A DNA stretch of 61,467 nucleotides, counting the filler, from Basidiobolus ranarum (taxonomy: Eukaryota): the NCBI GenBank assembly GCA_040143965.1. It is 14 parts of 14 records of this genome, joined end to end, with 100 filler letters (N's around TTAATTAATTAA, not from the genome) between each part and the next. Parts side by side here need not be neighbours in the genome. Positions count along the whole stretch, not along the records: positions 13,229 to 17,533 come from JASJQH010002021.1; 13 more parts are not named here. One strand, written 5' to 3'. The notes under the pieces were generated by a model. That model was given only the letters and a program-made list of their open reading frames with translations, had not been told where the DNA came from and searched no databases. Below are positions 4,312 through 30,180 of the stretch, one piece after another (positions within the stretch are counted from its first letter, which is position 1; every line of letters starts with the position of its first letter). The position numbers and the translations under genes are program-made.

Positions 4312-4411
4312 NNNNNNNNNNNNNNNNNNNNNNNNNNNNNNNNNNNNNNNNNNNNTTAATTAATTAANNNNNNNNNNNNNNNNNNNNNNNNNNNNNNNNN
4401 NNNNNNNNNNN
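4312..4411. other. Artificial contig linker (first of 13)
   Basis: 44 N + TTAATTAATTAA (stops in all six frames) + 44 N. Identical linkers start at 8722, 13129, 17534, 21937, 26339, 30736, 35132, 39527, 43921, 48310, 52697 and 57083. Contig lengths fall monotonically from 4311 to 4285 bp. Confidence 0.98.
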
Positions 4412-4979
4412 CTCCGCTGCTTTTTTGATCAAGACCGTAGGCAATGGCAGCGGCGGTAGGTTCATAAATGATAATGAGAACATACATGAAAGCGAAAGCA
4501 CCGGCATCATTAGTGGCTTGACGTTGAGAGTCATTAAAGTATGCTGGAACAGTGACAACAGTGTTCTTGACTTCAGCACCGAGGTAAGCTTCGGCAGTCT
4601 CCTTCATCTTTAACAAAATCATGGAAGAGATTTCTTCAGGAGTGAAAGTTTTAGTTTCTCCCTTGTACTCGACTTGGATTAAAGGTTTGGTATCTTTATC
4701 GACAACCTTGAAGGGCCAGTGTTTCATATCGGACTGGACTTCAGAATCGTTGAAACGGCGGCCGATGAGACGTTTGGCATCGAAGACACTGTTGGTGGGG
4801 TTCATAGCGACTTGATTTTTGGCAGCGTCACCGATGAGACGCTCCGAGTCATTGAAGGCAACGTAGGATGGGGTGGTTCTATTGCCTTGGTCGTTGGCGA
4901 TGATCTCAACACGATCGTTTTGCCATACTCCGACACAAGAGTAAGTGGTACCCAAATCAATTCCAACTGCTTTAGACAT
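4412..4979 (-). CDS. HSP70: Cytosolic Hsp70 (SSA-type), N-terminal part, truncated by contig end
   Basis: [62 protein letters not shown]. No signal or targeting peptide. Confidence 0.97.
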
Positions 4980-5091
4980 TTATTACAGACTGTACGGTAT
5001 ATGTGATATAGTATATAGGATATATATAGGCGTACTCAAGCGTATTCTAGGAAATGAATTAATTAAATTCCTGAGATCATAAATTCCCTCA

Positions 5092-6769: not shown

Positions 6770-8215
6770 AGATGATCACTTGTTCATATCTGCTCTATCT
6801 ATGACTACCAACAAGGATTCTCAAACATGGTATATTGATTCTAGAGCTTCCTAACATTTCACAAATGAAAAACATTGGTTTGTGGAATATGAAGAAATCC
6901 CAATTAGAAAGGTTTTCATGGGAGATGACTGCACATTGGATGCTATTGGAATAGGAACAATTAAAGTCAATTTAATTGGAGCTTCTGAAGAGAAAGTATA
7001 TACTTTTAAGGATGTATTACATGTTCCAGATATTGCCAAGAATTTAATATCTGTATGCAAGGCCACCTCAGAATGGCTAAAATTCAATTTTGATAAGTTA
7101 GGATGCACCATCACTGATCAAAATGGAAATTATTTAGCTTTGGGAGAAAAGGATCAAAACTTATGCAAACTTACATATAATACAAGAGGTTTGTGTGTAA
7201 ATATAAGTTATTCCAATCAAGAAACTATTCCAATATGGCGTAAGAGATTTGGCTATATTGGATTTGATTATTTGAGCAAAATAATCAAAATTGCCTAATT
7301 TCTGGAATTAAAGTTAACCACCCAACTAAAATGGAAACTTGTGAGGGTTATATATATGGAAAACAAGCCATGAAACCATTCTAGAGGTTTGGTTTAATCA
7401 AATCTGTCAAAAAATTGGATCTAATTCATTCAGACTTGTGTGGACCTATGCAAAATTTATCTTAAGGTGGAAAAAGATATTTATTCACTTTTATTGAAGA
7501 TTATACAAGACACACTTGGTCTACTTTATGGAAAGAAAAGAAGAAGCTCTCTCTATCTTCAGAGTTTTTAAAACACTTGTGGAGACTGCAACTGGAACTT
7601 AAACCAAGTAAATACTTACTGATAATGGTGGAGAATATAATTCAACACTGCTTGAGCACTTTTGAAAAGTAATGGAATTAAGCAAGAAACTACTGCCCCC
7701 TATTCACCTCAACAAATGGAGTTGATCAAAGAGCTAACAGGACTATAATAAAAATGGCAAGATCTATAATAAATGCCCAAAATTTATCTCATTACTCTTG
7801 GCCGGAATCTGTTGCTACAGCTATATATGTGAAGAATAGGAGTTTTACTAGCAGTCTGTCTAACTCTACATCATATAAAGCTTGGTTTGGAGTTAAACCT
7901 GATGTAAAACATTTGAGGATCTTTGGATGCATTGCATATGTCAAAATTATGACCAAAAATTGGTCCATATTTGATCCAAAAAGTAAAAAATGCATATTTC
8001 TGGGTTATTGTACTCAAACCAAGACCTACAGACTCTATGATACCAAAGTTTACAAGATAATCAAGTCCAGGGATCTTTTGTTTTATAAAAATGAAAAAAT
8101 ATATACCCAAAATGATCTCAGATGATGACAAAAACCAATTTTCTCCTGATCCAATCATTCAAATTGAATCAAACCAAAACAATGAGGAAAACAGCATTCC
8201 TGTGGACCCTTCAAC
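6770..8215 (+). mobile_element. Ty1/copia pol remnant (protease, gag-pre-integrase, integrase)
   Basis: WYIDSRAS*HFT, VLHVPDIAKNLISV, LIHSDLCGPM, DNGGEY, HLRIFGCIAY, KCIFLGY. Multiple stops and frameshifts. Confidence 0.92.
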
Positions 8216-8721: not shown

Positions 8722-8821
8722 NNNNNNNNNNNNNNNNNNNNNNNNNNNNNNNNNNNNNNNNNNNNTTAATTAATTAANNNNNNNNNNNNNNNNNNNNNNN
8801 NNNNNNNNNNNNNNNNNNNNN

Positions 8822-11995: not shown

Positions 11996-13128
11996 ATGGA
12001 ATACACATACGAACAACCTATCATGTCGCCAACAAAAGCCATCGACGCTCCTTCAATTCTTATAAATTTAGCCACCGTTCCCAACGCCTTTCCTAGTCCC
12101 AAAATGGATACAGTCAAGACGACCCTCGTAAAGCCCAACCATAGTTTTACGAAGGAAACTTCCTGGACTTATTCACAAACACGTATAATTGATGAGGGAT
12201 TTTTCGATAAGACGAAAGTTGAACGAGGAATAAAAACTTACACTGAACCAGAATATTCATTAAAACCTCAACTTAACCTCGATAGATTCGCCAGTAATTA
12301 TAAGTCCTGTTTATCGACAAACCTTCCAAAAATTCTTAAAAGAGACGCCACTGAGGACCTTTCTACTTTTACCCCTGTCGCGAAAAAACCTCTTCGTTCC
12401 AAATCGGATAGCCGCTTACTAGATGATTCATTACTTGATACACCATTGAGCGATTGCTCGGATATGGATCAACTCCCGCTACCGGCAGGATTTGGTGAGG
12501 TAGAACTCGAGGCAATTCGGATTTTGGGATCATTTAGTCAACCTCGTGATTCTAATGGATTATCCACCTTGGAAGGAACTAGCACCATTAATTCACCTCG
12601 GACAACTCCTGTAGAATGCACACTTCCACAACAACAACAGTTAGTTCAACTACAATTGAAGTCCGACTCACCCATCATGGCACCAAGGCTCATGTATGAT
12701 ACTTCAAATCAAAGCTCACCAATCTCTAGTAGGGCTAGCTCTCCAAAACCATTGGATAGAAGAACAGCGCGTCGAAGTCAGACTGGCACGGCAATGAATC
12801 AACACTCAGAACCAGTAAGTCCAGCAAGCAGTGGAATGGAGGAATCACGTAGTGATGAAGAAGGACGCTCACCAGGGATATTCCGGTGTGAGCATCCTAG
12901 CTGTGGGAAGACATTTGGCAGACTGTACAACCTCAAATCACACACACGGACACACACAGATGACCGACCATTCAAGTGTGGTCAATGTGAGCAAGCATTC
13001 AGTCGTAATCATGATTTGAAGAGACACCAGAAGATCCACACTGGGATCAAACCTTTCGAGTGTGCGGCATGTGGGAAGAAGTTCTCTAGGATGGACGCAC
13101 TCGGTAGACATCGGGCCAAGAAGCCAGA
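11996..13128 (+). CDS. C2H2 zinc-finger transcription factor (Crz1-like fingers), truncated by contig end
   Basis: Ser/Pro-rich N-terminus, then CEHPSCGKTFGRLYNLKSHTRTH, RPFKCGQCEQAFSRNHDLKRHQKIH and KPFECAACGKKFSRMDALGRH. Confidence 0.9.
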
Positions 13129-13738
13129 NNNNNNNNNNNNNNNNNNNNNNNNNNNNNNNNNNNNNNNNNNNNTTAATTAATTAANNNNNNNNNNNNNNNN
13201 NNNNNNNNNNNNNNNNNNNNNNNNNNNNACATGATCAAAGTATTTCATCATCCGAGAAAGATATACCCACGAATACTGATATCCAAGGCTCTATTGTGGC
13301 CCATTTAGATTTCTGTAACAATCCAAACAGCACCGTTACTTTGATTTCCAAACTTTGTAGCTGTATGTAAAATAATGTCAGCTTTGGCATGCTTTTGTAC
13401 AAGCAATAAACTCCCCGCTAAATGTCCAATTTACTGTAGTGGTTATTGAAAGCAATTTGTGATGGCCCACTTTCAATGCAATTTTGTGGTTCTCTGCATA
13501 GTTATGTTACTATTTATAGTAATAACATGTTCAAGGTTAAAAAGATTCCATACATTGTTCCGAATGGTTTGATCCTTATTATCACCTAGCTAGTGAACGT
13601 AAATCTGATTTATTTCTTGATTACATTTACATCTGTCTTTGTGGATGATCTATTTAATTTGCTCTTTCTGCAACCAATTATGCAAGTACAGCAAGCCTGC
13701 AATGGACAATAATGTCCGGGTTGTTCATTTGACCTTTC

Positions 13739-15048
13739 TCAAACTTCTAAAGCCTTCTGACTCTGTTGGCACCAAGTAAGTCGCTTATGTAGGAACAGCG
13801 CCACATACACAAGTATTAGTAGAATTGGTACTTCGATCAGCGGCCCAATGGTGGCAGCTAAGGCTTCTTCTGAGCTTATTCCATACACTCCCACCGCAAC
13901 AGCAATGGCCAACTCAAAATTATTACTTCCAGCAGTAAAAGACTGCGTAACTACAATATTGTACGGATAATGAAGCGCCCGTAGTAGCAGAAAAGTGGTG
14001 AAAAACATGATAATAAAGTACAGCAGCATAGGGACGGCAACACGGCATACAGAACCAATATTCTCAATGATACTATGTCCTTGATTTGCAAACATCACAA
14101 TAATCGTATACAAGAGACCAATCAAAGCAAGTGGGCCAATGCGCGGTAAAAACTTTCTGTTATACCATTCATCCCCCTTTACAAAGCGAAGGCTGTATCG
14201 CGTGATAGCACCGGCAACTAGTGGAATACCAAGGTAGATGAGAACAGATTTTGATACAACCCATATACTGAGATTCGCCTTCTGATGATTCTCTGCGCCA
14301 AACCATGCTGGAATGATATCAATAAACAATATACTATAGGGAGAATAGAGAGCTATTTGAAGTATTGAGTTAATTGCCACTAGAATTGCGCAGTAATCTG
14401 GGTCGCCTCCTGCCAGTTGATTCCAGATCAGGACCATGGCAATGCAGCTAAGGTGTACATTTGTTAATCATTGCTTATCATTCAGAATATTGAATAGAAG
14501 CACTTACCGAGCAAGTCCAACCATGATAACGCCTGAGCGATAGCCTGGAAGGTCTGGTAATGTAGCCCAGGCCAGTGCGGTCATGATAATGGGACCTATG
14601 ATCCAGTTTAAAATTATTGAGATTCCCATTTGTATCCAGATCTGACGATGCTTGAAAATTCTGTGCATCTTCTCGTATTGAACTTTACAAAGAACTGGAT
14701 ACATCATGACAAGAAGGCCAATGGCAATAGGTACGGAAACAGTATCAAATTGGATGGTTGCAAAAGCCTCTTCTACTCCGGGAACAAAATATCCTATCAG
14801 TACCCCCGTAATCATTGCAGCAATAATCCATACTGCAAGGTACTTGTCTAGGAACCCTAAGTTTTCAATAAACGCTGAAAGGAGAACGTATTAATTGAGA
14901 TGAGGTGGGTGCAAATCAAGTAATAAATTCAAAGCTTACACGACAATTCATCACCAGTTGCCGTTTTATCAACACCTGAGTCGTAGTTATGGTTGCCAGA
15001 TTGAGCACTATTGCTCACTTCTGATTTTTCACAATGTTTGTCGGCCAT
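13739..15048 (-). CDS. ACR3: ACR3 arsenite/antimonite efflux permease, 3 exons (15048-14940, 14874-14508, 14447-13739)
   Basis: LGFLDKYLAVWI, PIAIGLLVMMYPVLCKVQYE, LNWIIGP, GLARCIAMVLIW across an intron, GSNNFELAIAVA, IGPLIEVP. Both GT-AG introns splice in frame. Confidence 0.96.
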
Positions 15049-15583
15049 TCTTTGAAGTATCTGTTGATTCCAATTCCACTTATATACCGTGCTACTCATC
15101 CTGAATCACGTGCTCTTGCCAATCACCTTTCGTGTATTTCAAATACTACTTAATCAACTTGACCCGCCCAAATCAAATAGCATAAATCAAATAGGAGGCG
15201 TGACCTTAATAGTGTGTACTAGATGGGAGTGGAACAAACTCATTTGAAATGGGCCAATGAGTTTTTATTGAGTCCTAGCTTAGCTCATGTGACATGACCA
15301 ATGGTTGCTCGTGGATCTGATATTGCTTGAAATTGATACTCGCCTGATTGTCATGGTTTGTTGATTGGCCTGACTATCTTGGCTTATTGAAATGTTACTG
15401 CAATTCCAATATAGAAATGATTTAGAATGAATGCAGCCAAATACAGGCCAACAAATGATCTGATGATACTTCCTATCACCTGATCATCCCAATAGATTTC
15501 TTTGTTTTTCAAATACCACACTAGTATAAACAGTATTAATTTCAAGATGAATGCTATCGAATATTATCAAATCTATCTTCAAT

Positions 15584-16057
15584 ATGTCAAAGGTATTGTT
15601 TGTTTGCCGCCACAATTCATGTCGCTCGCAAATGGCTGAAGGACTTGCTATTTTCCTAGGCGGAGTCAACGGAGTTACCCCAGTCTTTGACCTTGTTTCT
15701 AGTGCCGCTCTGGAGGGATTAGCTGATATAAACCCTGATGCAAAGTTAGTTATGAGCAACATTGGTGTGGATATTTCAAGCCACTACTCAAAAATGATTG
15801 ACTCTTTTTCACCGCAAGACTTTGATATTGTTATCTCCATGTGTGGCTGCGGTGGTTCAGTAATAGCGGAGTGGAGGGAGGGAAAACGCTTCGAGGATTG
15901 GAATGTGTTGGATCCCACAGGATACGACGTTGATACATTTATTACCGTACGAAACGAAATTGAGAGTAGAGTGAAGGAGTTAATTCGTTCCATTATAGAG
16001 CAGAGACCACCAACCTACTCCCTTTATACCGCTGACAGGTGTTCACTTTCTTTGTAA
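15584..16057 (+). CDS. arsC: Arsenate reductase ArsC, LMW-PTP fold, cyanobacterial glutaredoxin-type signature; intronless (alternative ATG at 15551)
   Basis: KVLFVCRHNSCRSQMAEG (CX5R loop), GVDISSHYSK, DFDIVISMCGCG, FEDWNVLDPTG, VRNEIESRVKEL. Divergent from ACR3. Confidence 0.9.
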   Translation: MSKVLFVCRHNSCRSQMAEGLAIFLGGVNGVTPVFDLVSSAALEGLADINPDAKLVMSNIGVDISSHYSKMIDSFSPQDFDIVISMCGCGGSVIAEWREGKRFEDWNVLDPTGYDVDTFITVRNEIESRVKELIRSIIEQRPPTYSLYTADRCSLSL

Positions 16058-16439
16058 CCAGTTACTTACAAGTAAAATATTACTATGCCGTTCCATATGT
16101 ATGGTTGTATACAAAGTGTATGAGATAGTTGTTTCATTTTGGGTACCGAAACATACCAAGTGATATGAAAGGTTTTAGCTTATAAAGTCATACACTCTAT
16201 TGCCCAAAAATTATTCATTTTTTTGCATGATTCTGTCAACTGACAATATTTCATCTTTGACTTCATTCTTTAATGTGCTATTTGTCACATTGCTTAAGCA
16301 GTGTTTGAATGATAGTTCTTTACGTCACGAAGGTGATTCCATCATTCTTGGGGATATTATGTACATTTATACTCTGTGAAGTGAGTGAATCAGTTGTGAG
16401 TGCAACATGGTTTTAATACTAAGATTTCACATAATATAG

Positions 16440-17533
16440 GTGCAATGAAAAGCTCCTAGTGGTGTGAACCTTATTTAGCTTATATACTAATCGCTACAAA
16501 TGGACAATTAGGGAGGGATGAAAAGTACCAGAAGGTCTAATCTTTATTTATCTCAAGTCAGGTTATTGATGTCCTTGTAAGGGCAAGGATGAAAAGAGGG
16601 GGTCTGGGGATGCAGTCCTTCCAATATAAAAAGAACGCAGGGGGTATAGGGGATGTAATCCCTCATGTAAAGAAGAGAGCAGGGGGTTTAGGGGGATGAA
16701 AAGCTCTGGTTGGTGTGGACTTTGTTTAGCTTATATACTAATCTAAAAACAGTGACAATCAAGACATCAATCTTCAAAGTTATTGTAACAAAAGTGGAAC
16801 ATTTCCATACTTATTGTGATGACCAATGTAATTAAGTTCTGAGGATTTATATATAGTGATAAGGGGCACAATTCAGGGGGATAAAAAGCACCAGATTGTG
16901 TGGACTTCATTTAGCTTAAGTATTGATCTAAACAAAGTGACAATAAAGACATCAATCTTTTAAGTTAATATAACAATACTGCATCATATCCATACTTAAC
17001 TCAATGACCAATGTAATCAAGCTCAGAGGATGTAAATGTCAAAGTATTTGGGAGCCTGTTGGAAGTGGTTTGGAGAATTAGATGGTTAGGGGGGATAATA
17101 GGCACCAGAAGATGCAATATTTTCTTATCAATTCAAACAAAGTAAATAAATAAATAAGCCAGGTTAGAATGTAATATTCGAACATAAAGTCAAGATGTTG
17201 ACAGACCTAAATTTCCTAGTAAGCTAGGCCTTAGAGTATTCTAGAAGGGATGGGGCCTGAGCAGAGTTTTCCAGAAGGGATGGAGCCAAAGGTAGGGTAT
17301 AGATGTTCTGGTAAGGGTAAGGGAGGGTAAGGATGAAAAGAGGGGGTCTGGGGGATGCAGTCCTCCCAGTATAAAAAGAAAGCAGAGGGTATGAGTTAGG
17401 GGGGATAGGGGGGATGAAAAGCACCAGATGGTGTAGACTTTATTTAGCTTAAATACTAATCTAAACAAAGTGACAATCAAGACATCAATCTTTTGAGATA
17501 TTGTGATAATACTGAATCATATCCATACTTAAC
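16440..17533. repeat. Unclassified G-rich compound repeat with internal degenerate tandem units
   Basis: Unit GGGGGATGAAAAGCACCAG...TTATTTAGCTTA.ATACTAATCT near 16444, 16695, 16880 and 17413. Block GGATGAAAAGAGGGGGTCTGGGG(G)ATGCAGTCC near 16587 and 17331. Short LTR-B piece at about 17037-17085. Confidence 0.75.
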
Positions 17534-17653
17534 NNNNNNNNNNNNNNNNNNNNNNNNNNNNNNNNNNNNNNNNNNNNTTAATTAATTAANNNNNNNNNNN
17601 NNNNNNNNNNNNNNNNNNNNNNNNNNNNNNNNNTGATAAGAACGAATGTACCA

Positions 17654-19377
17654 TCAAACTGAATCATGATCACTTGAACCAGTAACTGACTGACTGTGAT
17701 GTCGGGTGTTGTGAACTTTCTCATCCGCTTCAGATCCACATTCCGTATCCGAAGCGTAGTTGGTAATTCTGATATTAGGAATGCGGTCTTGATCCTGTAC
17801 TTTATTACCACCACGTCTTTCTTTCTCCAAGTCAATCCAGCGTTGCATCACGTATTTAGAGCACTTATCTGCACCAGGTAACTCCTTCATTATAGCTGTT
17901 AGAAATATACCCAACAAATGTCTCTAGAGACTTAACATACTTGGATGTGCTTAGTAATTCCCAGGTTATTAATTCCATATAGTTGCGGTCCACTTGCGTG
18001 GGTTTTAGCACCAAACCCTTTGGCCATAATCTCGTCAAGTACTTGTTTCCAAACTCCGCTAGCCGAATTTGCTACAAATTTGCGACCAGGTTGATCTTCA
18101 GCTGTGACCTGAAACTGGAGAAAACTTTTAATATATATGTTGCAGAAAAGAAGAGATTTTGTACTGACTATTGGAGCTTCTCCGCCATCTAAAATCTCGG
18201 AAACATAGGTAGCTTTTTTGTTCCCATCCAGCATACTAGTATAAACTTTTTCACTCTGGAATCCAACTGGCCATATGAAACGAGGAGTATGGTACGCTTC
18301 TTTGTCCCATATAACTCTTCCTGCATGATACAGTTTGGTTATACTATAAAAAAATGTATCCCCCTAAGAATCAGAATTTACATACCGATATTAGCAATAG
18401 TAACCTCATCACCACCTTTACCTACCGTAACAGGTAGAATCAATTTGCCTTCTTTGTCTTTTGGGAGGTGCTAGATCCAATAAAAATAACGTTGTGAGTT
18501 ATCAAATAAAAGATGAAAGGTAATACATTAATATAGCATATATCTTTAGGTTACCTCAATGGGCTTGGCATCTGTACGATCATCGCGTTTCTAGTGTACA
18601 ATAAACTGAATATCACAAAATACTATACTTAAAGAATATAATCTACATACACCAGTGCGTCGTCTACGCTTAACTTTGGCCTCTACAGCCAATTGGGCCT
18701 ACACAAAATGTGTTGAGAAAATTTCATTCAAAACAAGAAACTAACAACGATCTCTTACCCGACTCTTTTCTCTCTCACGATGAGTTTTTGATGGCCGAGC
18801 CTTACTTTTTGCATCTATACATTAAAGCACCTTCAATGTCAAATACTTCCTCTAAAATAAACACCAAACTATCAACCAACCTAAGGAAGGAAATATAGCC
18901 TCTTCATCACTTTCGGGATCACTCTCAACTCGTTTATCAGAAGTGCTAGAATTCTCCGACGCATCGCTTAACAGTTCGTCATCAGAGGTGGATCTAAGTA
19001 GCAATATTTCAACTCAGTATTAAAGAATACTATTTTCATGAATATATCACAATCTGCTTACAAGAGATCTTCAACACTTGGTCTCAGCTCCATGGCAAGA
19101 TCAAGTAAATGTCTAAAATAGTGCGTACAAAATAAGCAAAGTTATTCTGTCATCCAACATAATATCATTCTAACCCATTTTCACGAGAGAGTTTCTTTAC
19201 TTTCTTCTCGATTTTCTCATAAGTCGCTATCAACTTTTCATTTTCCTGAGTAGTAGGAAAGGCAACATGTGTTTAAATGGAGTTCGTTGATACACAAGAA
19301 TATTCGAAATAGATAGCTACCTCGGCTGCATCGTAGAACCGATTCTTAATTTTGTGATATTTTTCTTTGTATGCCAT
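17654..19377 (-). CDS. TBRG1/NIAM-like protein: INO80E-like N-terminal coiled coil plus FYR-N/FYR-C domain, multi-exon
   Basis: MAYKEKYHKIKNRF|ENEKL...LSRENG|HLLDL, then IWPVGFQSEKVYTSM, YVSEILDGGEAP|FQVTAEDQP, SASGVWKQVL, SGPQLYGI, ELPGADKCSKY. Several GT-AG introns. Confidence 0.82.
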
Positions 19378-21696
19378 GGTGTGAAGCGTTCGAAATAATA
19401 ACCTTTAATGGTGCAAAAGACTATTATTACCTCGTGTCAAATCACATTGTAAACGTCATTTGCTCAGCATTTAAGAATTTGAATCGATCAATGGCGCTTC
19501 GATCAATTTTCAATATATACTTCTCGCGATAATTTTTAATAATCCGAGGGATAATATTTGGGCTACTCTGAATATACAATTTTGAGCGGCAGCCTCTTCT
19601 TGATATGGCATTCAAAGTATTGGTTGGTTGCAAACTGCACAAAAATAGCCGCCATGAATCGCAAAAAATTCCGTAATAATCAACGAACACCTTCATAAGT
19701 GTTCAGGCTATTGAAGATATTTAACCGTTATCGTTGGTTACTTAATGTCGACATCAATCCACGATTGACGCGGGGTGAAAAGTACAAGAACATATGTTCA
19801 CGATGACAATATCCAGGTGGGATGCGTTTTTGACTCCTTGGATTGGGATAACAATCATGAGCTAGAGTTGGAAAGTCTAGACATCTAGTTATTGAAGGTT
19901 TGAAAGATAAAAATGATCACGTTTCGGAAAAGATTGGGTTGCTTGTGGAACTCTGAATGCTTCTTGAGTAACATTACCTCTGCTCACCTTGCGCTACTAA
20001 CCATCTGTTACTAGCTGGTGAGAAAAAGCTATTAATACTCTCTGGTCACACCTTCTAAGACTGCGAGAGCTACGGTGCTAAGTCAGAACTCAAGCATCGA
20101 TTAAATGAAATGCATAAGGAAAGTTGCTCATGGGGCTGCCTGTTAGTGTCGGTTCAAAGCAATTCCATCAACAACTGGTCATGTTATAGCCTTGTTCGCG
20201 CAGTGTTTTTCGAATTCAGATCAAACTTGAGAAGCAGCCAATGATGTAACGAAGAGCCAAGAGATTTCAAATTGTTGCTCAAAGTAAGGTTAAGCGATTC
20301 TAGATTATCGACCTTTTGAAAAGAAAATAGAATGCACTAATTAAGTAAAAACAATTATACGTGACTCATCAATCAACCAAAGAAGCCTTAATTCAAATAC
20401 TGACCTGGTTCTAAAAAGAACATACTCCGCGATTCTCCATTGCCATTTGATATCTGGCAGACTCTGGCAGTCCACACCCTGCGAACGCTGTAGCTATCAT
20501 CATATCGGTCACGTAGCATTTTAACCGTTAAGAGATCTCCGTGACACAATCCCACTTGAAAATGAAGTAATACACCAGTTGCTGGAAGATACGACCGGGT
20601 TTACAGTTGATACTTGTGCTTAATTGTCTAATTTCATAGGCGTGCGAACTATCAGGTTGTTAGTTTCCAATCGCAATGTTGATTCGTAAGTTATTAGAAA
20701 CATCAGGAACAAACTAATCGCGATTTGTGTGAGGCATCATCTTAAAGAGACTATTTGACCACTCGTTGAGCCTGCTGGAAACTAGTCAAGTCGATCAGAA
20801 GATGGCCAAAGCACTGTCATGTCATTGTAGATGAGACTTGATATGTGGCTATCTTACTGGCCGTTTATTTCTGTAGGGAGGATACGCTCGTGCTGTCTCT
20901 TGAACTAATTTGTCCTGAAAACTCCAACTTGTGGCTCTTTAACGGTCCAATCAACGTGGCAGCATACTAATTTGGCTTACATGATAAAAGGAACTGATGT
21001 AATGATATGCACTGTACCCACCTATGCGTGGAGCGAAGGCATCTCTTTTTTGCAACTCTGCAGTTCATAAGTCAATGAAAAATTTGTAAATTGTTCTTCG
21101 AATTTGCATGACCTTCCATTGGTTGTGAGTCATTGGATAAAGTTAAAGTTTGTGTAATATATTGGTAATCAATTCACTTGTATTAGCATTAGAATCATTC
21201 CAAAAACAGCGTTTGCTCGAGAATTGAGCCCAAAGAATAGCAATTAATGAACCTTATTATCGATTACCTTCCATCTCTGGACACGGCAAAAAAATGTCAC
21301 TTCTATATTTATTCATGTTATCATTTTAAGCCAATCTCCTTGTATGATCGGTTGGTTCTTGGCTGTGGAAGATTGTAATTACCTCAAGAGATTCCTTTCT
21401 CTTCTAGGTTTGGCCTCTCATTTGTTACCCATGCTCATTTGCTTAGCCAATGACTGGTCTCAACATAATACTATAAAGCCTGACATGCATCTTTTCATTA
21501 TGGTATTCTTCGTTTTGGTTCAAGTCGCATTCCACTCAGTCCCTACACACATTCTTCGAGTCCATTGATTCTTCTCTTTGTTTTATTTTTGCATAGTTGT
21601 AATTTTATCGAAGAAACATAGCCAGTAACTCCCCTAGGAGTCATCCACCATTCCATTTCACTATATTAAAGACTTTTCACTTGAACCAAGGACGAT

Positions 21697-21936
21697 ATGA
21701 ATAACGTCGAACTCAGCTCATTAGATTCTGGGACTAGGACTTTCTATTCCGAGGAACCTAAGATCAATGATATAGAAAAGACTATCGTTGACAAGAAGGA
21801 GAGTGAGCCAGGCCTCCAAAGAACTTTGAAGGCTCGCCATCTTTCCATGATTTCAATCGGTGGTACTATTGGTACTGGGTTATTCCTTGCCAGTGGTAAT
21901 TCCATCTCCCAAGCTGGTCCAGGTGGTGCACTTGTT
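21697..21936 (+). CDS. APC-superfamily amino-acid permease, N-terminus, truncated by contig end
   Basis: LQRTLKARHLSMISIGGTIGTGLFLASG...AGPGGAL. Confidence 0.93.
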
Positions 21937-22036
21937 NNNNNNNNNNNNNNNNNNNNNNNNNNNNNNNNNNNNNNNNNNNNTTAATTAATTAANNNNNNNN
22001 NNNNNNNNNNNNNNNNNNNNNNNNNNNNNNNNNNNN

Positions 22037-22440
22037 ACTGAGCGACAGTAGAAGCATGTAGATACCTGTTGCTTTCTTAATCTTCACTCTCTTGGACATT
22101 CCTACACAGTTTAGGGAGCCGTGGCAAGGGAAATGCAACTTTATATAGTGAATTCCCAAACCATTTATAGATCGAAGGTCCTTCACGCTTTCGAAATAGA
22201 AACCAATCTGGTCTATCCTTGAGTTGAAATTTTCCTTTTTCAGAGCATCCTGAATATTACTCGCCAACTCTTGCTGTATATCAATATATAGCCATGGATT
22301 GGTTCGATTTTCATCCAGTTCCTAAAGAAGAATCCGTACTTAGCTCATTTCCCTCAATAAATCTTCGATTCCAGTTAAAATTAACCTTTGTCTTGATTGG
22401 AGAGCTTAAGAATAAAAGACTTCTGATAGAGCTTGGGGCT
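22037..22440 (-). CDS. Exons of an unidentified gene running off the contig start
   Basis: Open frame ELDENRTNPWLYIDIQQELASNIQ... follows a CTTTAG acceptor near 22322, preceded by a GT-AG intron and a short exon. No family recognised. Confidence 0.35.
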
Positions 22441-23163
22441 ATTTAAAAATTTCGTTGAGATAGCTTTTGGATTGGCCATTTTAAGGAGTGGCACTAGTTA
22501 ATCTCAGCAGAGGCCTAATTTGGTCCTAGAAATAAGTGTGTAAATTTTACTATGCAAGCACTCTCTCATCTTACTAGTATTCACTCTTACGACCGAAGGC
22601 ACGTTGTCGAACATATATAGCAACGTACACAGATGGGCTGGTTATGACTCAGTTACTCAACAGCATTTAGGGCACCCCTTGGGCTGGTATAAACGAAGCA
22701 AAGTAATCTAGTCAATTCTAGGTTGCCTTGCTAGCAATAGAACTGATGCAAACTCGGCCAAACATATCTCAAGAAATGCTGTTACAAGTAACTTTGTATT
22801 AGCTATGATGTACGTGGTACTTCATACGATCGCTTAGTGATCACTCTATAATGAATCAGTTCAAGAATCCTTGAGAATGCAACCAGAGTATTTGATAGTG
22901 TATGCTAGAGCCACACTGGCCAATGCGTGATCTTTGTTTGCATCTATACACTACTTATGTACCAGGTATCCATGGAGCTCACGGTTCTTTTAAGATGTAA
23001 GCTTAAAAATAGCATCGAGTGGTACCAAGATAGCCTAATATAGCCAGCTGAATACTCTCAAACATTGGTCTACGAGATTGTAGATGTTTAGATGCTTTTG
23101 ACCATTATAAACGATCTCTCCTGCCTAGAATTTAATCTAGAAATGCGAATAATCATCCTATTT

Positions 23164-23238
23164 ATACATGTTCTACAATAGTCTGCATATGCATGCTCTA
23201 TGGTAATCTAGATATACATGCTCTATAATAAGGTACAT
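23164..23238. repeat. Degenerate 25-bp tandem repeat x3
   Basis: ATACATGTTCTACAATAGTCTGCAT / ATGCATGCTCTATGGTAATCTAGAT / ATACATGCTCTATAATAAGGTACAT. Confidence 0.65.
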
Positions 23239-24994
23239 ATACACTACCATGGCAAATGGGTCGAGAGTTCACCATCCATTTCATTAAAGTCTAGTCAACC
23301 TTCCTATGACTACACCACAATAACTCTAATTGATCCACCGTTGAGCTTATTTGAGTCGCAAATTTAGATACTGGAATTCATTTATTGAATAAAATTCGGT
23401 CCTGGCAATCTTTGGCCAGTAGCTACCGGTATATACAAAACCACACTTTAAAACTTGAAATCTACTGAATATATCAGGTTAACATGAACTTGAACGGGAT
23501 TTGTCTTATTAGTCATCCACCCATGAAACTCAGCCGACATTTGAATATTTCTTTATCTATGAAGGAGCCATGCACTGCGTATTCAAGTGACGATTCTTTG
23601 GGCTCGTTTTGGCCCCCAAATAGATCAACAATAAGGTTAATTCTTTTCTGGATGTCTCGTTCATATTAAGACGGATCTAGGGGATATGATTGCCTACCCT
23701 TGAAACCTTCCTAGTCAAGATTTACCATACATATACTGTTACCGGATATTACCCTTTAGAGTGTTAATTACTATGGGGCACCTGCCTTGAGAGGTAGATC
23801 CCATGAAATTCCTTTTATTGGTGTGTTGAGTATGGTTAATCCATTCTACCTTAACCGCGGTGCTAGCCAGTAGAAGTAGTTCAAATGTTGACCATAGATT
23901 TGATCAATGGTTAAGTGATATCATAGAGCTAGTTCTCACTCATCTCAAAAATAAAATAAGTCTAAGAATAAAATACGTACTCACCCGTGTTGTTGCTTAA
24001 TATATGAATAACTCTTACTAGAAATCATCTTTATCAAAACTCTATTTTCTTTTGTTGCAAGAGGCACTCAATGTTTAGGCCCCCAAGCTCTTCATCCAAT
24101 TAATGTCGCCTCATTCCCTTGTAGATAACCATTGCATTGATAAATGTGAATACGGTATAGTATGTATATTGCAATATGAAGAGTATCATCTCCATTATAA
24201 CTACACTAAGATGGGGAATTTCCAGCTTACAAAGGGGATGTGTTTCGGATCTCATAAATATCAGGGATATTATAAGAGGCGACTATCATGTTTTTTCTAG
24301 CGGGGCTTTTTGAGGAGGAGCCATGAGTATCATTCTAATGATAAGCAAAAGGAGGATTTTCTTGTAAAGAGTTATAAAGAGAAGGGAGCTGAACTTCATG
24401 CATATCAACAAGATAAGGATTCGAATGCCGAGGAAATAGATCAACATGTGTGTGTCACCTCTGTTCAGAAATTAAACAGCCAGGCCTTCGGGATTTAACC
24501 TGGTTCGATTCCCACCAAGAGATATTACTTATGGGCATCATTTTCTTACTGAAAATCCATTTGAAGAGACCTACATCAACATGGATCAATATACTAGCAC
24601 AGGAAACTGATCAAATACTCGGGGGATACTATTCTCAAATCTTGAACTCAAGGATACACTACTTCAGCCAAGGAGAAGAAATCTATCCTTCAAGTGAGCA
24701 TATCATATTGGTTTGAACTATCTGAGATTGATGCTACCATTCAAGCCTATTTGTGGCCCAACAAACAGGACGGATCTATTGCTGCGTCTAGTAAGAGTTA
24801 TGATATGTCAGACTACAAAACGCATTCATGACTTCTGATCTCCAGAGTCAGTTAGAATCCCATTCAATTGAACTAATAGATATGGTGAGGTCATATGAAT
24901 ATATGTGCAGGTTTATAGCCAACTGTTACTACGTTTCAAATATTATAATAAAGATCGCTTTGCATAAAGGGCTCAGGATTGCGCAGTGATAAGA

Positions 24995-28149: not shown

Positions 28150-30180
28150 AAAGTATTGAATTAAATTGGACCAATTTAAATTTCTGAAGTTGAACATAGA
28201 GACCAGAGGATTTTCAACTTTTTCAGGACTTGGGAAAGAAAAAGATCATGTTCTTCATGAGAGTTTGAGAAGATCAAGATATCATCAAGGTTGAGTATCA
28301 CAAACTGGTTAAGATACTCTCTGAAGATAGCATTCATCACATGTTGAAAGACTGCAAGAGCATAGATAAGTCCAAATGGCATGACATTGTATTCAAAGTG
28401 TCCATAGTGAGTTCAAAAGGCAGTTTTCCATTGGTCTCCAGGTCTGATTTTTACAAGATTTTAAGCATCTATTAGGTGGATGTTTCTAAATACCTTAGCT
28501 TCAGCAAGCTGATCCAACAGAGAATCAACTAATGGCAAGAGGTACTGATTTTGACAGTGATGCTATTTGGGCCTTGATAATCAACATAGAGATGGAGGGA
28601 TCAATACTTGTTCTTATTGAATAAAATTAAGAGCCTGCTGGATACTTAAGATGTTGAATAAATGCTTTGTCCAGATTTTCTTCGGATATACTCTTTCTGA
28701 ATGCTTGGTTCTGGCTGGGGCAGCCCATAGATAAGCCTAAATATTGGTTGTTTTTGTTCATGTAGATATATGGAGCAATTACAAAGGTGGTGAGTTGGGA
28801 GTATATCAGATTTCTTGTTTTAAAGATATCAGCAATGGCTGAATTCTTTGGTGGAGCACAGAGACCATAGGTTTTGTTGATTTCAACTCCTCAGCATCAC
28901 TGTCTTTAGCTATTGGCTTCATAGAGGTTTTAAGCATTTGTGCTATGATGAGTTGAATACTTTGCATATGGCAAATATGGGTTAGGAGGAGGAACTTGCT
29001 TGAACATGATAGTTTTCTTCTTCCAGTTGATGACTGGGTCAGGCTGCATGAGCCATGATATACCAAGGATAGGTGATTTGCCCAATGGCATGCCCATTAT
29101 TGCAGCTGGGCATTGAAGTTCTCCAATGGTTTGGGAGAGTAGGTGAGAGTTCTCTTCAACTTCCATATGGTTGATCTTAAATCCAAGGTTCTGTTTGGAC
29201 AGTTTCAGGCTGCATGTTCAGGGGCTCTACAATAGAGGCATAGTTTCTCTTGTTGTTGTTAATATTTCTCCTGAGCACTAAGCTTTCTGAATCAAGTTCC
29301 ATAAACTTGCTTTGGGTCATCTGCTTGAACTGCATTTTGGACCTGTTCCAATGTGCCAGGATTTATTGGGCCTTGGATCAGCATTTTAGAGTAACTGTAT
29401 TTGAAATTAAGCCGGCCTATGGGTGCTGGATAGTGCCAAATTGTCCTGCATGAATTTTAGAATACTTTATCTAATATGATATATACAGCACAATCTGGCC
29501 CTATCACAGGAAATAAGTCTTTTGTATTTGATGAGAGGGAGAGTACAAAGGAGCAAATTTCTTTGTTGTTGTCTTTCCAACAACTAGTTGTCACATTTTA
29601 CCACCTGATGGATAAAATCAGGCAAGGTCATTGGGTTGGCCAAAGTGAGTATTGGATCCTTAATATTTTCTTGAAATCCAAATTGGAACTGGCTGATAAA
29701 GGCTGATTCTACCCAATTGAGATCACAGGGAAGTAGGCAGAATTCTGCAGCAAAAGTTGCGGTAGGCTTTGAACCTTGTTTAAGTGCACTGAGCTTGATA
29801 GCTGAAGTCCTTTCCTTTTGTGCATTTCCAAATGTAGCTTCCAGTTCATCAAGGAAGGCAAGGTAGTTGGAAAGAAGCAGAGTTTGACTTTCTTTCAAAG
29901 CAGCAAACTAAGACAGAGTGGTTCCTGATCAATGTGTTCCCACTGGGCCTACTTTTGTTTGGTCAGAGGGGTATTGATGATGATATAGCTGGACCATCAG
30001 TTTTACTAGCTTGATAAAACCATGATAGTTTTGGCAAGTGCCATCAAAATGATTTGGTAAGGAGATCTTTGGCTAAGGAGTTAGATTTGAGTGATAGTTG
30101 GATGGAATAGAACTCTGTACTTGAGCAAAAGAAGCTTGAAGTTCTTGATTTCTATGTCAAGGCTGGGGATGGGCTTGCAT
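28150..30180 (-). mobile_element. Ty3/gypsy (Tf2/chromovirus-like) gag-pol remnant
   Basis: Gag LPNHFDG and LKQGSKPTATFAAEF, zinc knuckle CLYCRAPEH..NCP, protease end ILGISWL..PDPVINW, RT WKTAF*THYGHFEYNVMPFGL...NLDDILIFS. Confidence 0.92.

What the first reader, a model, noticed from the sequence alone, without database searches (positions are those of the whole stretch)
13739..16057. Fungal arsenic-resistance gene pair: spliced ACR3 head-to-head with an intronless cyanobacterial-type ArsC
Seen: on one contig, ACR3 (two spliceosomal introns) and an intronless LMW-PTP-fold arsC diverge from a spacer of about 535 bp. The ArsC has C8-x4-C13-R14, a CGC motif (VISMCGCG) and FEDWxxxDPxG. Established: this C8/C13 plus CxC arrangement is the signature of the Synechocystis-type glutathione/glutaredoxin-dependent ArsC. 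It differs from the Cdc25/rhodanese Acr2 of yeast and from the wider-spaced cysteines of thioredoxin-type Firmicute ArsC. Yeast ACR2/ACR3 is also a divergent pair. Inference: a horizontally acquired bacterial reductase has been recruited next to a eukaryotic exporter, convergently rebuilding a reduce-and-export module with a non-homologous enzyme. Linkage to an intron-containing gene argues against contamination. Bacterial-type arsenate reductases are known in some fungi, so the novelty would be the subtype and the pairing.
Basis: partly seen in the sequence, partly recalled or inferred. Interest (0 to 1): 0.82.

Follow-up and report, generated by a model that had tools for sequence, protein, structure and literature searches.

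The report
Fungal arsenate reductase–arsenite pump gene pair
A Basidiobolus fungus carries, back to back, a normal fungal arsenite pump gene and a cyanobacteria-like arsenate reductase gene, a pairing that is also kept in some distant soil fungi and probably detoxifies arsenate.

Summary
On the minus strand lies a three-exon ACR3 gene. Its spliced translation equals, letter for letter, a deposited Basidiobolus ranarum protein of 394 aa. After 535 bp, an intronless 157-aa ORF diverges on the plus strand. It has the LMW-PTP fold with C8, C13, R14, a CGC motif (C87/C89) and FEDW…DP.G. Its best matches are the glutathione/glutaredoxin arsenate reductase of Synechocystis, by sequence and by fold.

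Three points are new. (1) The reductase belongs to a tight fungal clade (99/96 support): Basidiobolus, Endogonales (Jimgerdemannia, Bifiguratus) and Umbelopsis. (2) This clade is a divergent sister of the cyanobacterial/algal enzymes, not nested in cyanobacteria. It scores below the NCBIfam cut-off and carries its own tail, PTY[ST]LY…C, in 15 of 15 members. (3) The ACR3–ArsC pairing is conserved: the genes are adjacent in Bifiguratus and U. nana and share a contig in other Umbelopsis.

That rules out contamination. Horizontal acquisition is plausible, but the donor is unresolved: a single eukaryotic clade is not rejected (p-AU 0.33).

Verdict: a real and tidy locus, a new variant of a known kind, of moderate interest.

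The parts
13739..14447 (-). ACR3 exon 3 (stop codon included). Holds the RCIAMV cysteine right after intron 2 and the ELAI glutamate.
   Evidence: The spliced model is identical to P0411. RCIAMV starts at residue 159 and ELAI at residue 337 of P0411.
14448..14507 (-). ACR3 intron 2, 60 nt, GTAAGT...TAG
14508..14874 (-). ACR3 exon 2
14875..14939 (-). ACR3 intron 1, 65 nt, GTAAGC...CAG
14940..15048 (-). ACR3 exon 1, starting at the ATG at 15048. An upstream in-frame ATG at 15099 would add 17 residues.
   Evidence: The model starting at 15048 gives 394 aa, identical to the deposited protein. The model starting at 15099 gives 411 aa and is not identical.
15049..15583 (.). 535-bp divergent intergenic spacer, presumed shared promoter. 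It holds a 45-nt imperfect direct repeat (15105-15149 and 15475-15519, 71%) and a tandem AAATCAAATAG x2 (15170-15194).
   Evidence: There is no Yap8-element signal: in the whole window 58 matches against 62.5 expected, with one 3-mismatch match in the spacer.
15584..16057 (+). Intronless arsC (157 aa plus stop), LMW-PTP fold, CGC (Synechocystis-like) type. An alternative ATG lies at 15551.
15605..15628 (+). P-loop C8-R-H-N-S-C13-R14-S15
15842..15850 (+). C87-G88-C89 motif, aligned to the CGC of Synechocystis ArsC
   Evidence: alignment. The three columns are invariant in the 44 sequences of alignment A1.
16004..16054 (+). Tail specific to the fungal clade: R141-PPTYSLY-TADR-C153-SLSL
   Evidence: PTY[ST]LY followed by x3-5 and C is present in 15 of 15 fungal-clade proteins. 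Outside that clade it is found only in their own cluster members. pLDDT is 77 for residues 141-150 and 52 for 151-157.

Best explanation
The locus is a two-gene arsenate detoxification module in the nuclear genome of Basidiobolus ranarum. The reductase ArsC has the LMW-PTP fold. It most likely attacks arsenate with Cys8 in the CX5R loop, resolves the intermediate through the C87-G-C89 pair, and is recycled by glutathione/glutaredoxin, as in Synechocystis ArsC. The arsenite it makes is exported by the neighbouring Acr3 antiporter. Both genes are probably driven from the shared 535-bp spacer.

ArsC belongs to a fungus-specific, divergent sister subfamily of the cyanobacterial/algal enzymes. That subfamily is found in Basidiobolus, Endogonales and Umbelopsidales. 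Its patchy distribution points to an ancient horizontal acquisition from an unresolved donor. The gene then became linked to the resident fungal ACR3, and the pair was inherited or passed on as a unit.

Shown: the gene structures, family placement, fold, motifs, conserved linkage and eukaryotic context. Inferred: the enzyme activity, the electron donor, co-regulation, and the direction and time of transfer.
For: Gene models and identity of ACR3: (420 bits against a cut-off of 282.8).

ArsC family:
- TIGR02689 scores 128.4 bits against 67 bits for the Trx type.
- PDB best hit is 2l17 'Glutaredoxin arsenate reductase', E 4.5e-31, with C8, C87 and C89 aligned to its cysteines.
- The AlphaFold2 model has pLDDT 92.2. 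Its best Foldseek hits are 2myu and 2l17, TMt 0.91 and 0.87, 41-42% identity.
- The CGC-type clade has 100/86 support and the fungal clade of 14 rows has 99/96.

Conserved linkage:
- Bifiguratus: BZG36_01598 (ACR3) and BZG36_01599 (ArsC), accessions OZJ05479 and OZJ05478.
- U. nana: GAB5588846 (ACR3) and GAB5588847 (ArsC).
- U. ramanniana: CAO3666726 and CAO3666730 on one contig.
- Umbelopsis AD052 and PMI_123: both genes on contigs of the same length.
- Three unnamed contigs of 24995, 33964 and 58639 bp are listed for both an ACR3 and an ArsC.

Eukaryotic setting: the window also holds HSP70, pirin, copia fragments, a C2H2 factor, chitin synthase and more. ArsC GC3 is 0.42 against 0.36-0.41 for neighbouring genes.

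ACR3 lies in the eukaryote clade (100/100), with the two Basidiobolus copies sister to Mucorales (96/82).

The Synechocystis arsBHC operon joins an Acr3-type pump with this type of reductase (PMC4284471, passages read).
Against: - All 4 fungal-clade proteins tested score 122-134 bits, below the TIGR02689 equivalog cut-off of 157.6. Two algal proteins (173, 193) and one cyanobacterial protein (236) pass. Transfer of function and of reductant from Synechocystis is therefore less safe.
- The clade has a 6-8 residue insertion after helix 1 and an extra conserved Cys in a tail. Either could change the redox relay.
- The fungal clade is not nested in cyanobacteria.
- One clade of all named eukaryotic sequences is not rejected (p-AU 0.329). 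Basidiobolus lying outside the named Mucoromycotina is not rejected either (p-AU 0.564). Neither the donor nor the mode of spread is settled.
- In U. isabellina the two genes are 41 locus tags apart. In Jimgerdemannia they are on different short contigs.
- No expression or read data could be obtained.
- No shared regulatory element was identified.
Confidence: 0.7

Rival explanations
1. Same module, different chemistry. The fungal subfamily has altered the redox relay. The invariant tail cysteine (C153 here) would act as an extra resolving cysteine, or the PTYSLY tail would fold into the active site as a regulator. The enzyme might then couple to thioredoxin, or to glutathione alone, and not behave like Synechocystis ArsC.
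For: The tail PTY[ST]LY-x3-5-C is present in 15 of 15 clade members and in no protein outside the clade among those examined. All 4 members tested score below the equivalog cut-off. Residues 141-150 are modelled with moderate confidence, pLDDT 77. Three stramenopile homologues also end in a C-terminal cysteine.
Against: C8, C87 and C89, the cysteines shared with Synechocystis ArsC, are all kept. The last seven residues, including C153, are poorly ordered in the model (pLDDT 52). No biochemical data exist.
Confidence: 0.2
2. There was no transfer into fungi as such. The CGC-type ArsC is old in eukaryotes, from one early acquisition, perhaps tied to plastid or other endosymbiosis or to an early eukaryote. 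It was lost from most fungi, and the fungal clade is a vertical remnant.
For: CGC-type ArsC occurs in Symbiodiniaceae, brown algae, Tribonema, Chrysoparadoxa and Diphylleia. A single clade of the 19 named eukaryotic rows is not rejected (p-AU 0.329). The fungal clade branches outside the cyanobacteria+algae clade. ArsC composition matches the host genome.
Against: The unconstrained tree needs 3 changes for the algal label and keeps fungi apart from the algae. The constrained tree is 12 log-likelihood units worse. No Dikarya, Mucorales, Mortierella, Glomeromycotina or chytrid member appeared among the best 120 hits. Among 50%-identity representatives only 2 proteins reached E<=1e-30. Vertical descent would therefore need many losses.
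Confidence: 0.2
3. The ORF encodes a protein phosphatase (Ltp1/LMW-PTP or arginine-phosphatase type) and not an arsenate reductase. Its position next to ACR3 would be coincidental.
For: The Pfam hit is to the general LMWPc family only. Several relatives are annotated 'phosphotyrosine protein phosphatase I'.
Against: LMW-PTP and YwlE chains match at E 1e-4 to 1e-5, against 4.5e-31 for Synechocystis ArsC. Yeast LTP1 is Foldseek rank 48 at 20% identity. The CGC motif is invariant. Adjacency to ACR3 recurs in Bifiguratus and U. nana.
Confidence: 0.04
4. Assembly chimera or bacterial contamination joined to a fungal contig at the spacer.
For: The reductase gene has no intron, and its nearest non-fungal relatives are bacterial.
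Against: There is no N or composition break in 13229-17533. Fungal genes lie on both sides. GC3 matches the neighbours. The closest relatives are fungal at 53-65% identity. The same pairing is seen in independent assemblies.
Confidence: 0.01

Closest known systems
Synechocystis sp. PCC 6803 ArsC (PDB 2l17/2myu) and its arsBHC operon
   Same: LMW-PTP fold, P-loop CxxNSCRS, the CGC pair and FEDW...DP.G. It is the best hit by sequence and by fold. The operon also links this reductase type to an Acr3-type pump (PMC4284471, passages read).
   Different: Identity is only 41-42%. The window protein scores below the TIGR02689 cut-off. It has an insertion after helix 1 and a 17-residue Cys-bearing tail. 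It lacks the counterpart of the Synechocystis cysteine in VTSCGLES, which reads VSSAALEG here. The genes are divergent eukaryotic genes, one of them spliced, and not an operon. No arsH was found in the window among ORFs of 90 aa or more, nor among 63 smaller ORFs at 15999-24495.
Saccharomyces cerevisiae ACR2-ACR3 (with Yap8/ACR1) cluster
   Same: A fungal reductase gene next to ACR3. Yap8 activates just ACR2 and ACR3 (PMC7261193, passages read). That the yeast pair is divergent is recalled, not checked here.
   Different: Yeast Acr2 is a Cdc25/rhodanese-fold enzyme (recalled) and is not homologous to this LMW-PTP-fold protein. There is no Yap8-element signal in the spacer. The neighbouring regulator-like gene here is a C2H2 zinc finger and not a bZIP.
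Green-algal ArsB(ACR3)-ArsH-ArsC neighbourhoods (Foflonker & Blaby-Haas 2020, PMC7826186, section 7 read)
   Same: Eukaryotic nuclear clusters that join ACR3 with a bacterial-like ArsC.
   Different: Those clusters include ArsH. Their ArsCs are reported to be closer to various bacteria than to each other. The fungal ArsCs form one tight clade. I did not compare sequences with those algal ArsCs.
Thioredoxin-coupled ArsC of S. aureus pI258 / B. subtilis
   Same: The same fold and the same P-loop nucleophile (Foldseek ranks 3-13).
   Different: Identity is 28-32%. TIGR02691 scores only 67 bits. There is a CGC motif in place of the widely spaced second and third cysteines; that spacing is recalled.

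Membership tests
Glutathione/glutaredoxin-type LMW-PTP-fold arsenate reductase (Synechocystis ArsC, TIGR02689) | LMW-PTP fold | tested here: met
   Pfam LMWPc 2.3e-18. AlphaFold2 model pLDDT 92.2. Foldseek TMt 0.91 to 2myu.
Glutathione/glutaredoxin-type LMW-PTP-fold arsenate reductase (Synechocystis ArsC, TIGR02689) | P-loop C-X5-R-S with the nucleophilic Cys8 | tested here: met
   CRHNSCRS at residues 8-15, aligned to the Synechocystis loop.
Glutathione/glutaredoxin-type LMW-PTP-fold arsenate reductase (Synechocystis ArsC, TIGR02689) | C-G-C pair (Synechocystis C80/C82; numbering recalled) | tested here: met
   C87-G88-C89, invariant in the 44-sequence alignment A1, aligned to the CGC of 2l17.
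Glutathione/glutaredoxin-type LMW-PTP-fold arsenate reductase (Synechocystis ArsC, TIGR02689) | Score at or above the curated equivalog cut-off (157.6 bits) | tested here: not met
   The window protein scores 128.4 bits. Jimgerdemannia scores 134.2, U. isabellina 122.3 and Bifiguratus 122.5. A cyanobacterium scores 236 and two algae 193 and 173. I therefore file it as a divergent sister subfamily, not as an equivalog.
Glutathione/glutaredoxin-type LMW-PTP-fold arsenate reductase (Synechocystis ArsC, TIGR02689) | Phylogenetic placement with CGC-type enzymes and apart from Trx or mycoredoxin types | tested here: met
   The CGC clade has 100/86 support. The fungal clade lies inside it but outside the cyanobacteria+algae subclade, which has 96/80.
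Glutathione/glutaredoxin-type LMW-PTP-fold arsenate reductase (Synechocystis ArsC, TIGR02689) | Arsenate reduction that depends on GSH and glutaredoxin | not testable with these tools
   Needs an enzyme assay.
ACR3 arsenite efflux permease (TIGR00832) | Full-length match above the curated cut-off | tested here: met
   P0411, identical to the spliced window model, scores 420.1 bits against 282.8 and covers profile positions 1-327 of 327.
ACR3 arsenite efflux permease (TIGR00832) | Conserved membrane Cys (RCIAMV) and Glu (ELAI) needed for transport (their roles are recalled) | tested here: met
   RCIAMV at residue 159 and ELAI at residue 337 of P0411.
Thioredoxin-type ArsC (pI258 family, TIGR02691) | Score above the cut-off of 174.3 bits | tested here: not met
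   67 bits.
Housekeeping LMW-PTP (yeast Ltp1 type) | Closest similarity to LMW-PTPs | tested here: not met
   YwlE and LMW-PTP chains match at E 8e-6 to 1e-3, against 4.5e-31 for ArsC. Yeast LTP1 is Foldseek rank 48 at 20% identity.

The most novel reading that the evidence does not exclude
Early-diverging fungi own a distinct arsenate reductase subfamily. Its invariant C-terminal PTY[ST]LY...Cys tail would add a fourth redox-active cysteine, or an autoinhibitory pseudo-substrate, to the Synechocystis-type relay. This reductase and ACR3 would form a two-gene cassette that moved between fungal phyla (Mucoromycota and Basidiobolomycota) as a unit.
Probability: 0.15. Interest if true: 0.6.

Novelty: new variant of a known kind. 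Interest (0 to 1): 0.42.

Why it matters
A 2014 review described the Synechocystis-type 'hybrid' arsenate reductase as exclusive to cyanobacteria (PMC4284471, passages read). Here it has a fungal sister subfamily, held next to the arsenite pump in at least three fungal lineages, and further relatives in algae, dinoflagellates and Diphylleia.

So fungi have solved 'reduce, then export' at least twice with unrelated enzymes: Cdc25-type Acr2 in yeast and LMW-PTP-type ArsC here, both linked to ACR3. This gives a clean case for studying how gene clusters for toxic intermediates arise in eukaryotes.

The clade-specific cysteine tail gives a concrete, cheap biochemical question.

My full-text searches found no paper on this fungal gene or pair. 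Databases already label some relatives 'arsenate reductase'.

Tried and rejected
- Whole-genome search of the window's assembly: no genome is held. I could not ask whether a second ArsC sits beside the ACR3 paralogue P0412, or whether Acr2, ArsH or ArsM exist elsewhere.
Contiguity rests on sequence, composition and synteny only.
- Metagenome scan for related loci: of 80 loci kept, all were 36-44% identical. The only one I inspected, L001, is a non-CGC type. No fungal locus came back, so gene orientation and spacer in relatives remain unseen.
- Earlier findings of this scan: nothing near, nothing by sequence, and one unrelated bacterial arsC'-'acr3 scar by words.
- Yap8 response element in the spacer: no enrichment. 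Repeats in the spacer are recorded but not interpreted.
- ACR3-LMWP fusion proteins (P0147, P0206 from Heterostelium, P0241): their reductase domains lack the CGC motif, so they are a different subtype and not relatives of this pair.
- Literature search 'glutaredoxin arsenate reductase' / Symbiodinium was badly framed, requiring only one of the two terms, and gave nothing useful.
- In the first tree sets I dropped near-duplicates: CGC-type rows at 80% identity or more and other rows at 42-48% or more. I also dropped domains under 115-120 residues and P0002, which is the window's own truncated call. The tree has 91 rows taken from 268 domains.
- Supplements of PMC7826186 (its ArsC tree, supplementary fig. 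6) and of PMC11370035 were not seen. They may list fungal ArsC homologues.
Full report
**What is there**

On the minus strand, 15048-13739 holds a three-exon gene. The exons are 15048-14940, 14874-14508 and 14447-13739. The introns are 65 and 60 nt, with GTAAG donors and CAG/TAG acceptors. The exon ORFs hit Pfam SBF and NCBIfam acr3. A script spliced the three exons, and the translation was identical to P0411. That protein is a 394-aa entry a source names 'arsenicals resistance [Basidiobolus ranarum]'. The full protein scores 420 bits on TIGR00832 against a cut-off of 282.8. It carries RCIAMV and ELAI.

On the plus strand, 15584-16057 is one open frame of 157 aa. It hits Pfam LMWPc at 2.3e-18. 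The spacer between the two ATGs is 535 bp.

**Setting**

The window is ordinary fungal nuclear DNA. It holds HSP70, pirin, copia-type fragments, a YhhN protein, a C2H2 zinc-finger gene just beyond the 3' end of ACR3, FYRN/FYRC, a chitin synthase with cytochrome-b5 and DEK_C domains, RasGAP_C, MFS and VTT genes.

N runs recur about every 4.4 kb, and none lies in 13229-17533. GC3 of arsC is 0.42. That is close to the chitin synthase (0.41) and to ACR3 exon 3 (0.36).

No further arsenic gene turned up. I scanned ORFs of 90 aa or more across the window, and 63 of the 94 smaller ORFs I had listed, namely those at 15999-24495.

**Which reductase**

- NCBIfam gives 128.4 bits on TIGR02689 (glutathione/glutaredoxin type) and 67 bits on the thioredoxin-type model.
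- Among solved structures the best sequence match is Synechocystis ArsC, 2l17, 'Glutaredoxin arsenate reductase', E 4.5e-31. C8, C87 and C89 align to its cysteines. pI258 ArsC follows at 1e-13 and LMW-PTPs at about 1e-5.
- An AlphaFold2 model built on a 44-sequence alignment has pLDDT 92.2. Its best Foldseek hits are 2myu and 2l17 (TMt 0.91 and 0.87). Yeast LTP1 is rank 48 at 20% identity.

The roles of the Synechocystis cysteines are recalled from the literature and were not read here. A review states that this enzyme is related to the Trx-dependent ones but uses glutathione/glutaredoxin. It also states that it lies in the arsBHC operon with an Acr3-type pump (PMC4284471, passages).

**Relatives**

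The nearest proteins are fungal: Jimgerdemannia flammicorona (65%), five Umbelopsis species (56-62%) and Bifiguratus adelaidae (53%). Some unnamed metagenome proteins also fall here. Cyanobacterial enzymes follow at 45-50% and stramenopile ones at 41-47%.

In an exhaustive search of 50%-identity representatives, only two proteins reached E<=1e-30. One is the Jimgerdemannia representative. The other is a Symbiodiniaceae protein with three tandem ArsC domains. Other CGC-type members come from brown algae, Tribonema, Chrysoparadoxa and Diphylleia.

NCBI taxonomy places Basidiobolus in Basidiobolomycota. The other named fungi fall in two classes of Mucoromycotina.

**ArsC tree**

The tree has 91 rows and 135 columns, built with IQ-TREE under LG+C20.
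- The 14 fungal rows form one clade (99/96).
- They lie inside the CGC-type clade (100/86).
- They lie outside the clade of cyanobacteria plus algae (96/80).

So 'cyanobacterial-type' is right as a family label, but a cyanobacterial donor is not shown.

Two AU tests were run:
- Basidiobolus outside the named Mucoromycotina is not rejected (p 0.564).
- All 19 named eukaryotic rows as one clade is not rejected (p 0.329, 12 log-likelihood units worse).

With 135 columns the data cannot tell transfer from a bacterium, transfer from another eukaryote, or old inheritance with many losses.

Consistent with its position as a sister group, all 4 fungal members tested fall below the TIGR02689 cut-off (122-134 bits against 157.6). 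Two algal proteins and one cyanobacterial protein pass.

The fungal clade also has an insertion after helix 1 and a tail, R-x-P-T-Y-[ST]-L-Y-x3-5-C. The tail is present in 15 of 15 members and absent elsewhere except in their own cluster members.

**ACR3 tree**

The tree has 50 rows and 421 columns. Eukaryotic ACR3s form one clade against the nearest bacterial hits (100/100). The two Basidiobolus paralogues (100/99) are sister to Mucorales (96/82). The pump is thus a resident fungal-type gene.

**The pairing is conserved**

- Bifiguratus: the ACR3 and ArsC proteins carry adjacent locus tags (BZG36_01598 and 01599) and adjacent accessions on one contig.
- U. nana: consecutive accessions (GAB5588846 and 47).
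- U. ramanniana: accessions four apart on one contig.
- Umbelopsis AD052 and PMI_123: both genes are on contigs of identical length.
- Three unnamed contigs (24995, 33964 and 58639 bp) are listed for both proteins.
- Against: in U. isabellina the genes are 41 tags apart, and in Jimgerdemannia they are on different short contigs.

Orientation and spacers in these genomes could not be seen. This synteny, together with the intron-bearing neighbour, rules out contamination or a chimeric contig.

**Mechanism**

The mechanism is inferred. ArsC reduces arsenate through Cys8, with C87/C89 and a thiol donor, most likely GSH/glutaredoxin. Acr3 exports the arsenite. The divergent spacer probably co-regulates both genes.

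I found no Yap8-type element: 58 matches in the window against 62.5 expected. The spacer has a 45-nt imperfect direct repeat near each gene start and a short tandem repeat, both of unknown meaning.

**Comparison with what is known**

The pair resembles three known arrangements.
- The cyanobacterial arsBHC operon has the same two families.
- The green-algal ArsB-ArsH-ArsC neighbourhoods are also eukaryotic clusters (PMC7826186, section 7 read).
- The yeast ACR2-ACR3 cluster has the same logic but a non-homologous reductase (PMC7261193 passages; the fold of Acr2 is recalled).

ACR3-reductase fusions in other eukaryotes use a non-CGC reductase.

Full-text searches found no paper on this fungal subfamily or pair. 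One survey reports LMW-PTP-type arsC2 homologues as widespread in fungi, without subtype or linkage (PMC11370035, passages). Its supplements were not seen.

**Verdict**

This is a real, well-formed locus. Its claim of transfer from bacteria is plausible but not demonstrated. The pairing is a shared trait of several early-diverging fungi and not a peculiarity of this genome. It is a new variant of a known kind, of moderate interest. The most testable novelty is the clade-specific cysteine tail.

Noticed in passing
window 11996-13180 (+): A C2H2 zinc-finger gene ends just beyond the 3' end of ACR3 (the ORF runs into an N mask at 13129). In a Rhizopus arrhizus entry the ACR3 model is named 'BZIP domain-containing' (P0131). 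Regulators next to ACR3 may therefore differ between lineages.
   Followed up: no
window, N runs at 4312-4411, 8722-8821, 13129-13228, 17534-17633 and onward about every 4.4 kb: Paired 44-base N runs recur at a regular spacing across the whole window. They look like deliberate masks and not assembly gaps. They cut several ORFs, for example the C2H2 gene and HSP70.
   Followed up: partly
window 15105-15149 and 15475-15519; 15170-15194: A 45-nt imperfect direct repeat (71%) has one copy close to each gene start. It contains CACGTG/CACCTG-like and CCAAT-like words. There is also a perfect tandem AAATCAAATAG x2. These are possible regulatory elements.
   Followed up: no
P0242 and its cluster (Symbiodiniaceae): Dinoflagellate proteins of 456 aa hold three tandem CGC-type ArsC domains. 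Related members are 308-541 aa long.
   Followed up: partly
P0041, P0049, P0243, P0252 (stramenopiles): Algal CGC-type ArsCs carry 40-65-residue N-terminal extensions, which may be targeting peptides. Three stramenopile homologues, P0041, P0049 and P0078, end in a C-terminal cysteine. The fungal proteins have no N-terminal extension.
   Followed up: no
P0412 (B. ranarum, another contig): A second ACR3 paralogue, 76-77% identical to the window's copy, exists in the same species. Whether it also has an ArsC neighbour is unknown.
   Followed up: no
window 6855-8122 (+), 29587-29907 (-): Fragments of copia-type and gag retrotransposon ORFs (Pol_BBD, SH3_retrovirus, Retrotrans_gag).
   Followed up: no
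window 4683-5003 (+), opposite HSP70 at 4412-4979 (-): The antisense frame of HSP70 hits Pfam NAD-GH (PF10712) at 3.4e-14. I recall this family being modelled on the reverse strand of HSP70 genes, so I take the hit as an artefact of that model and not as a gene.
   Followed up: no
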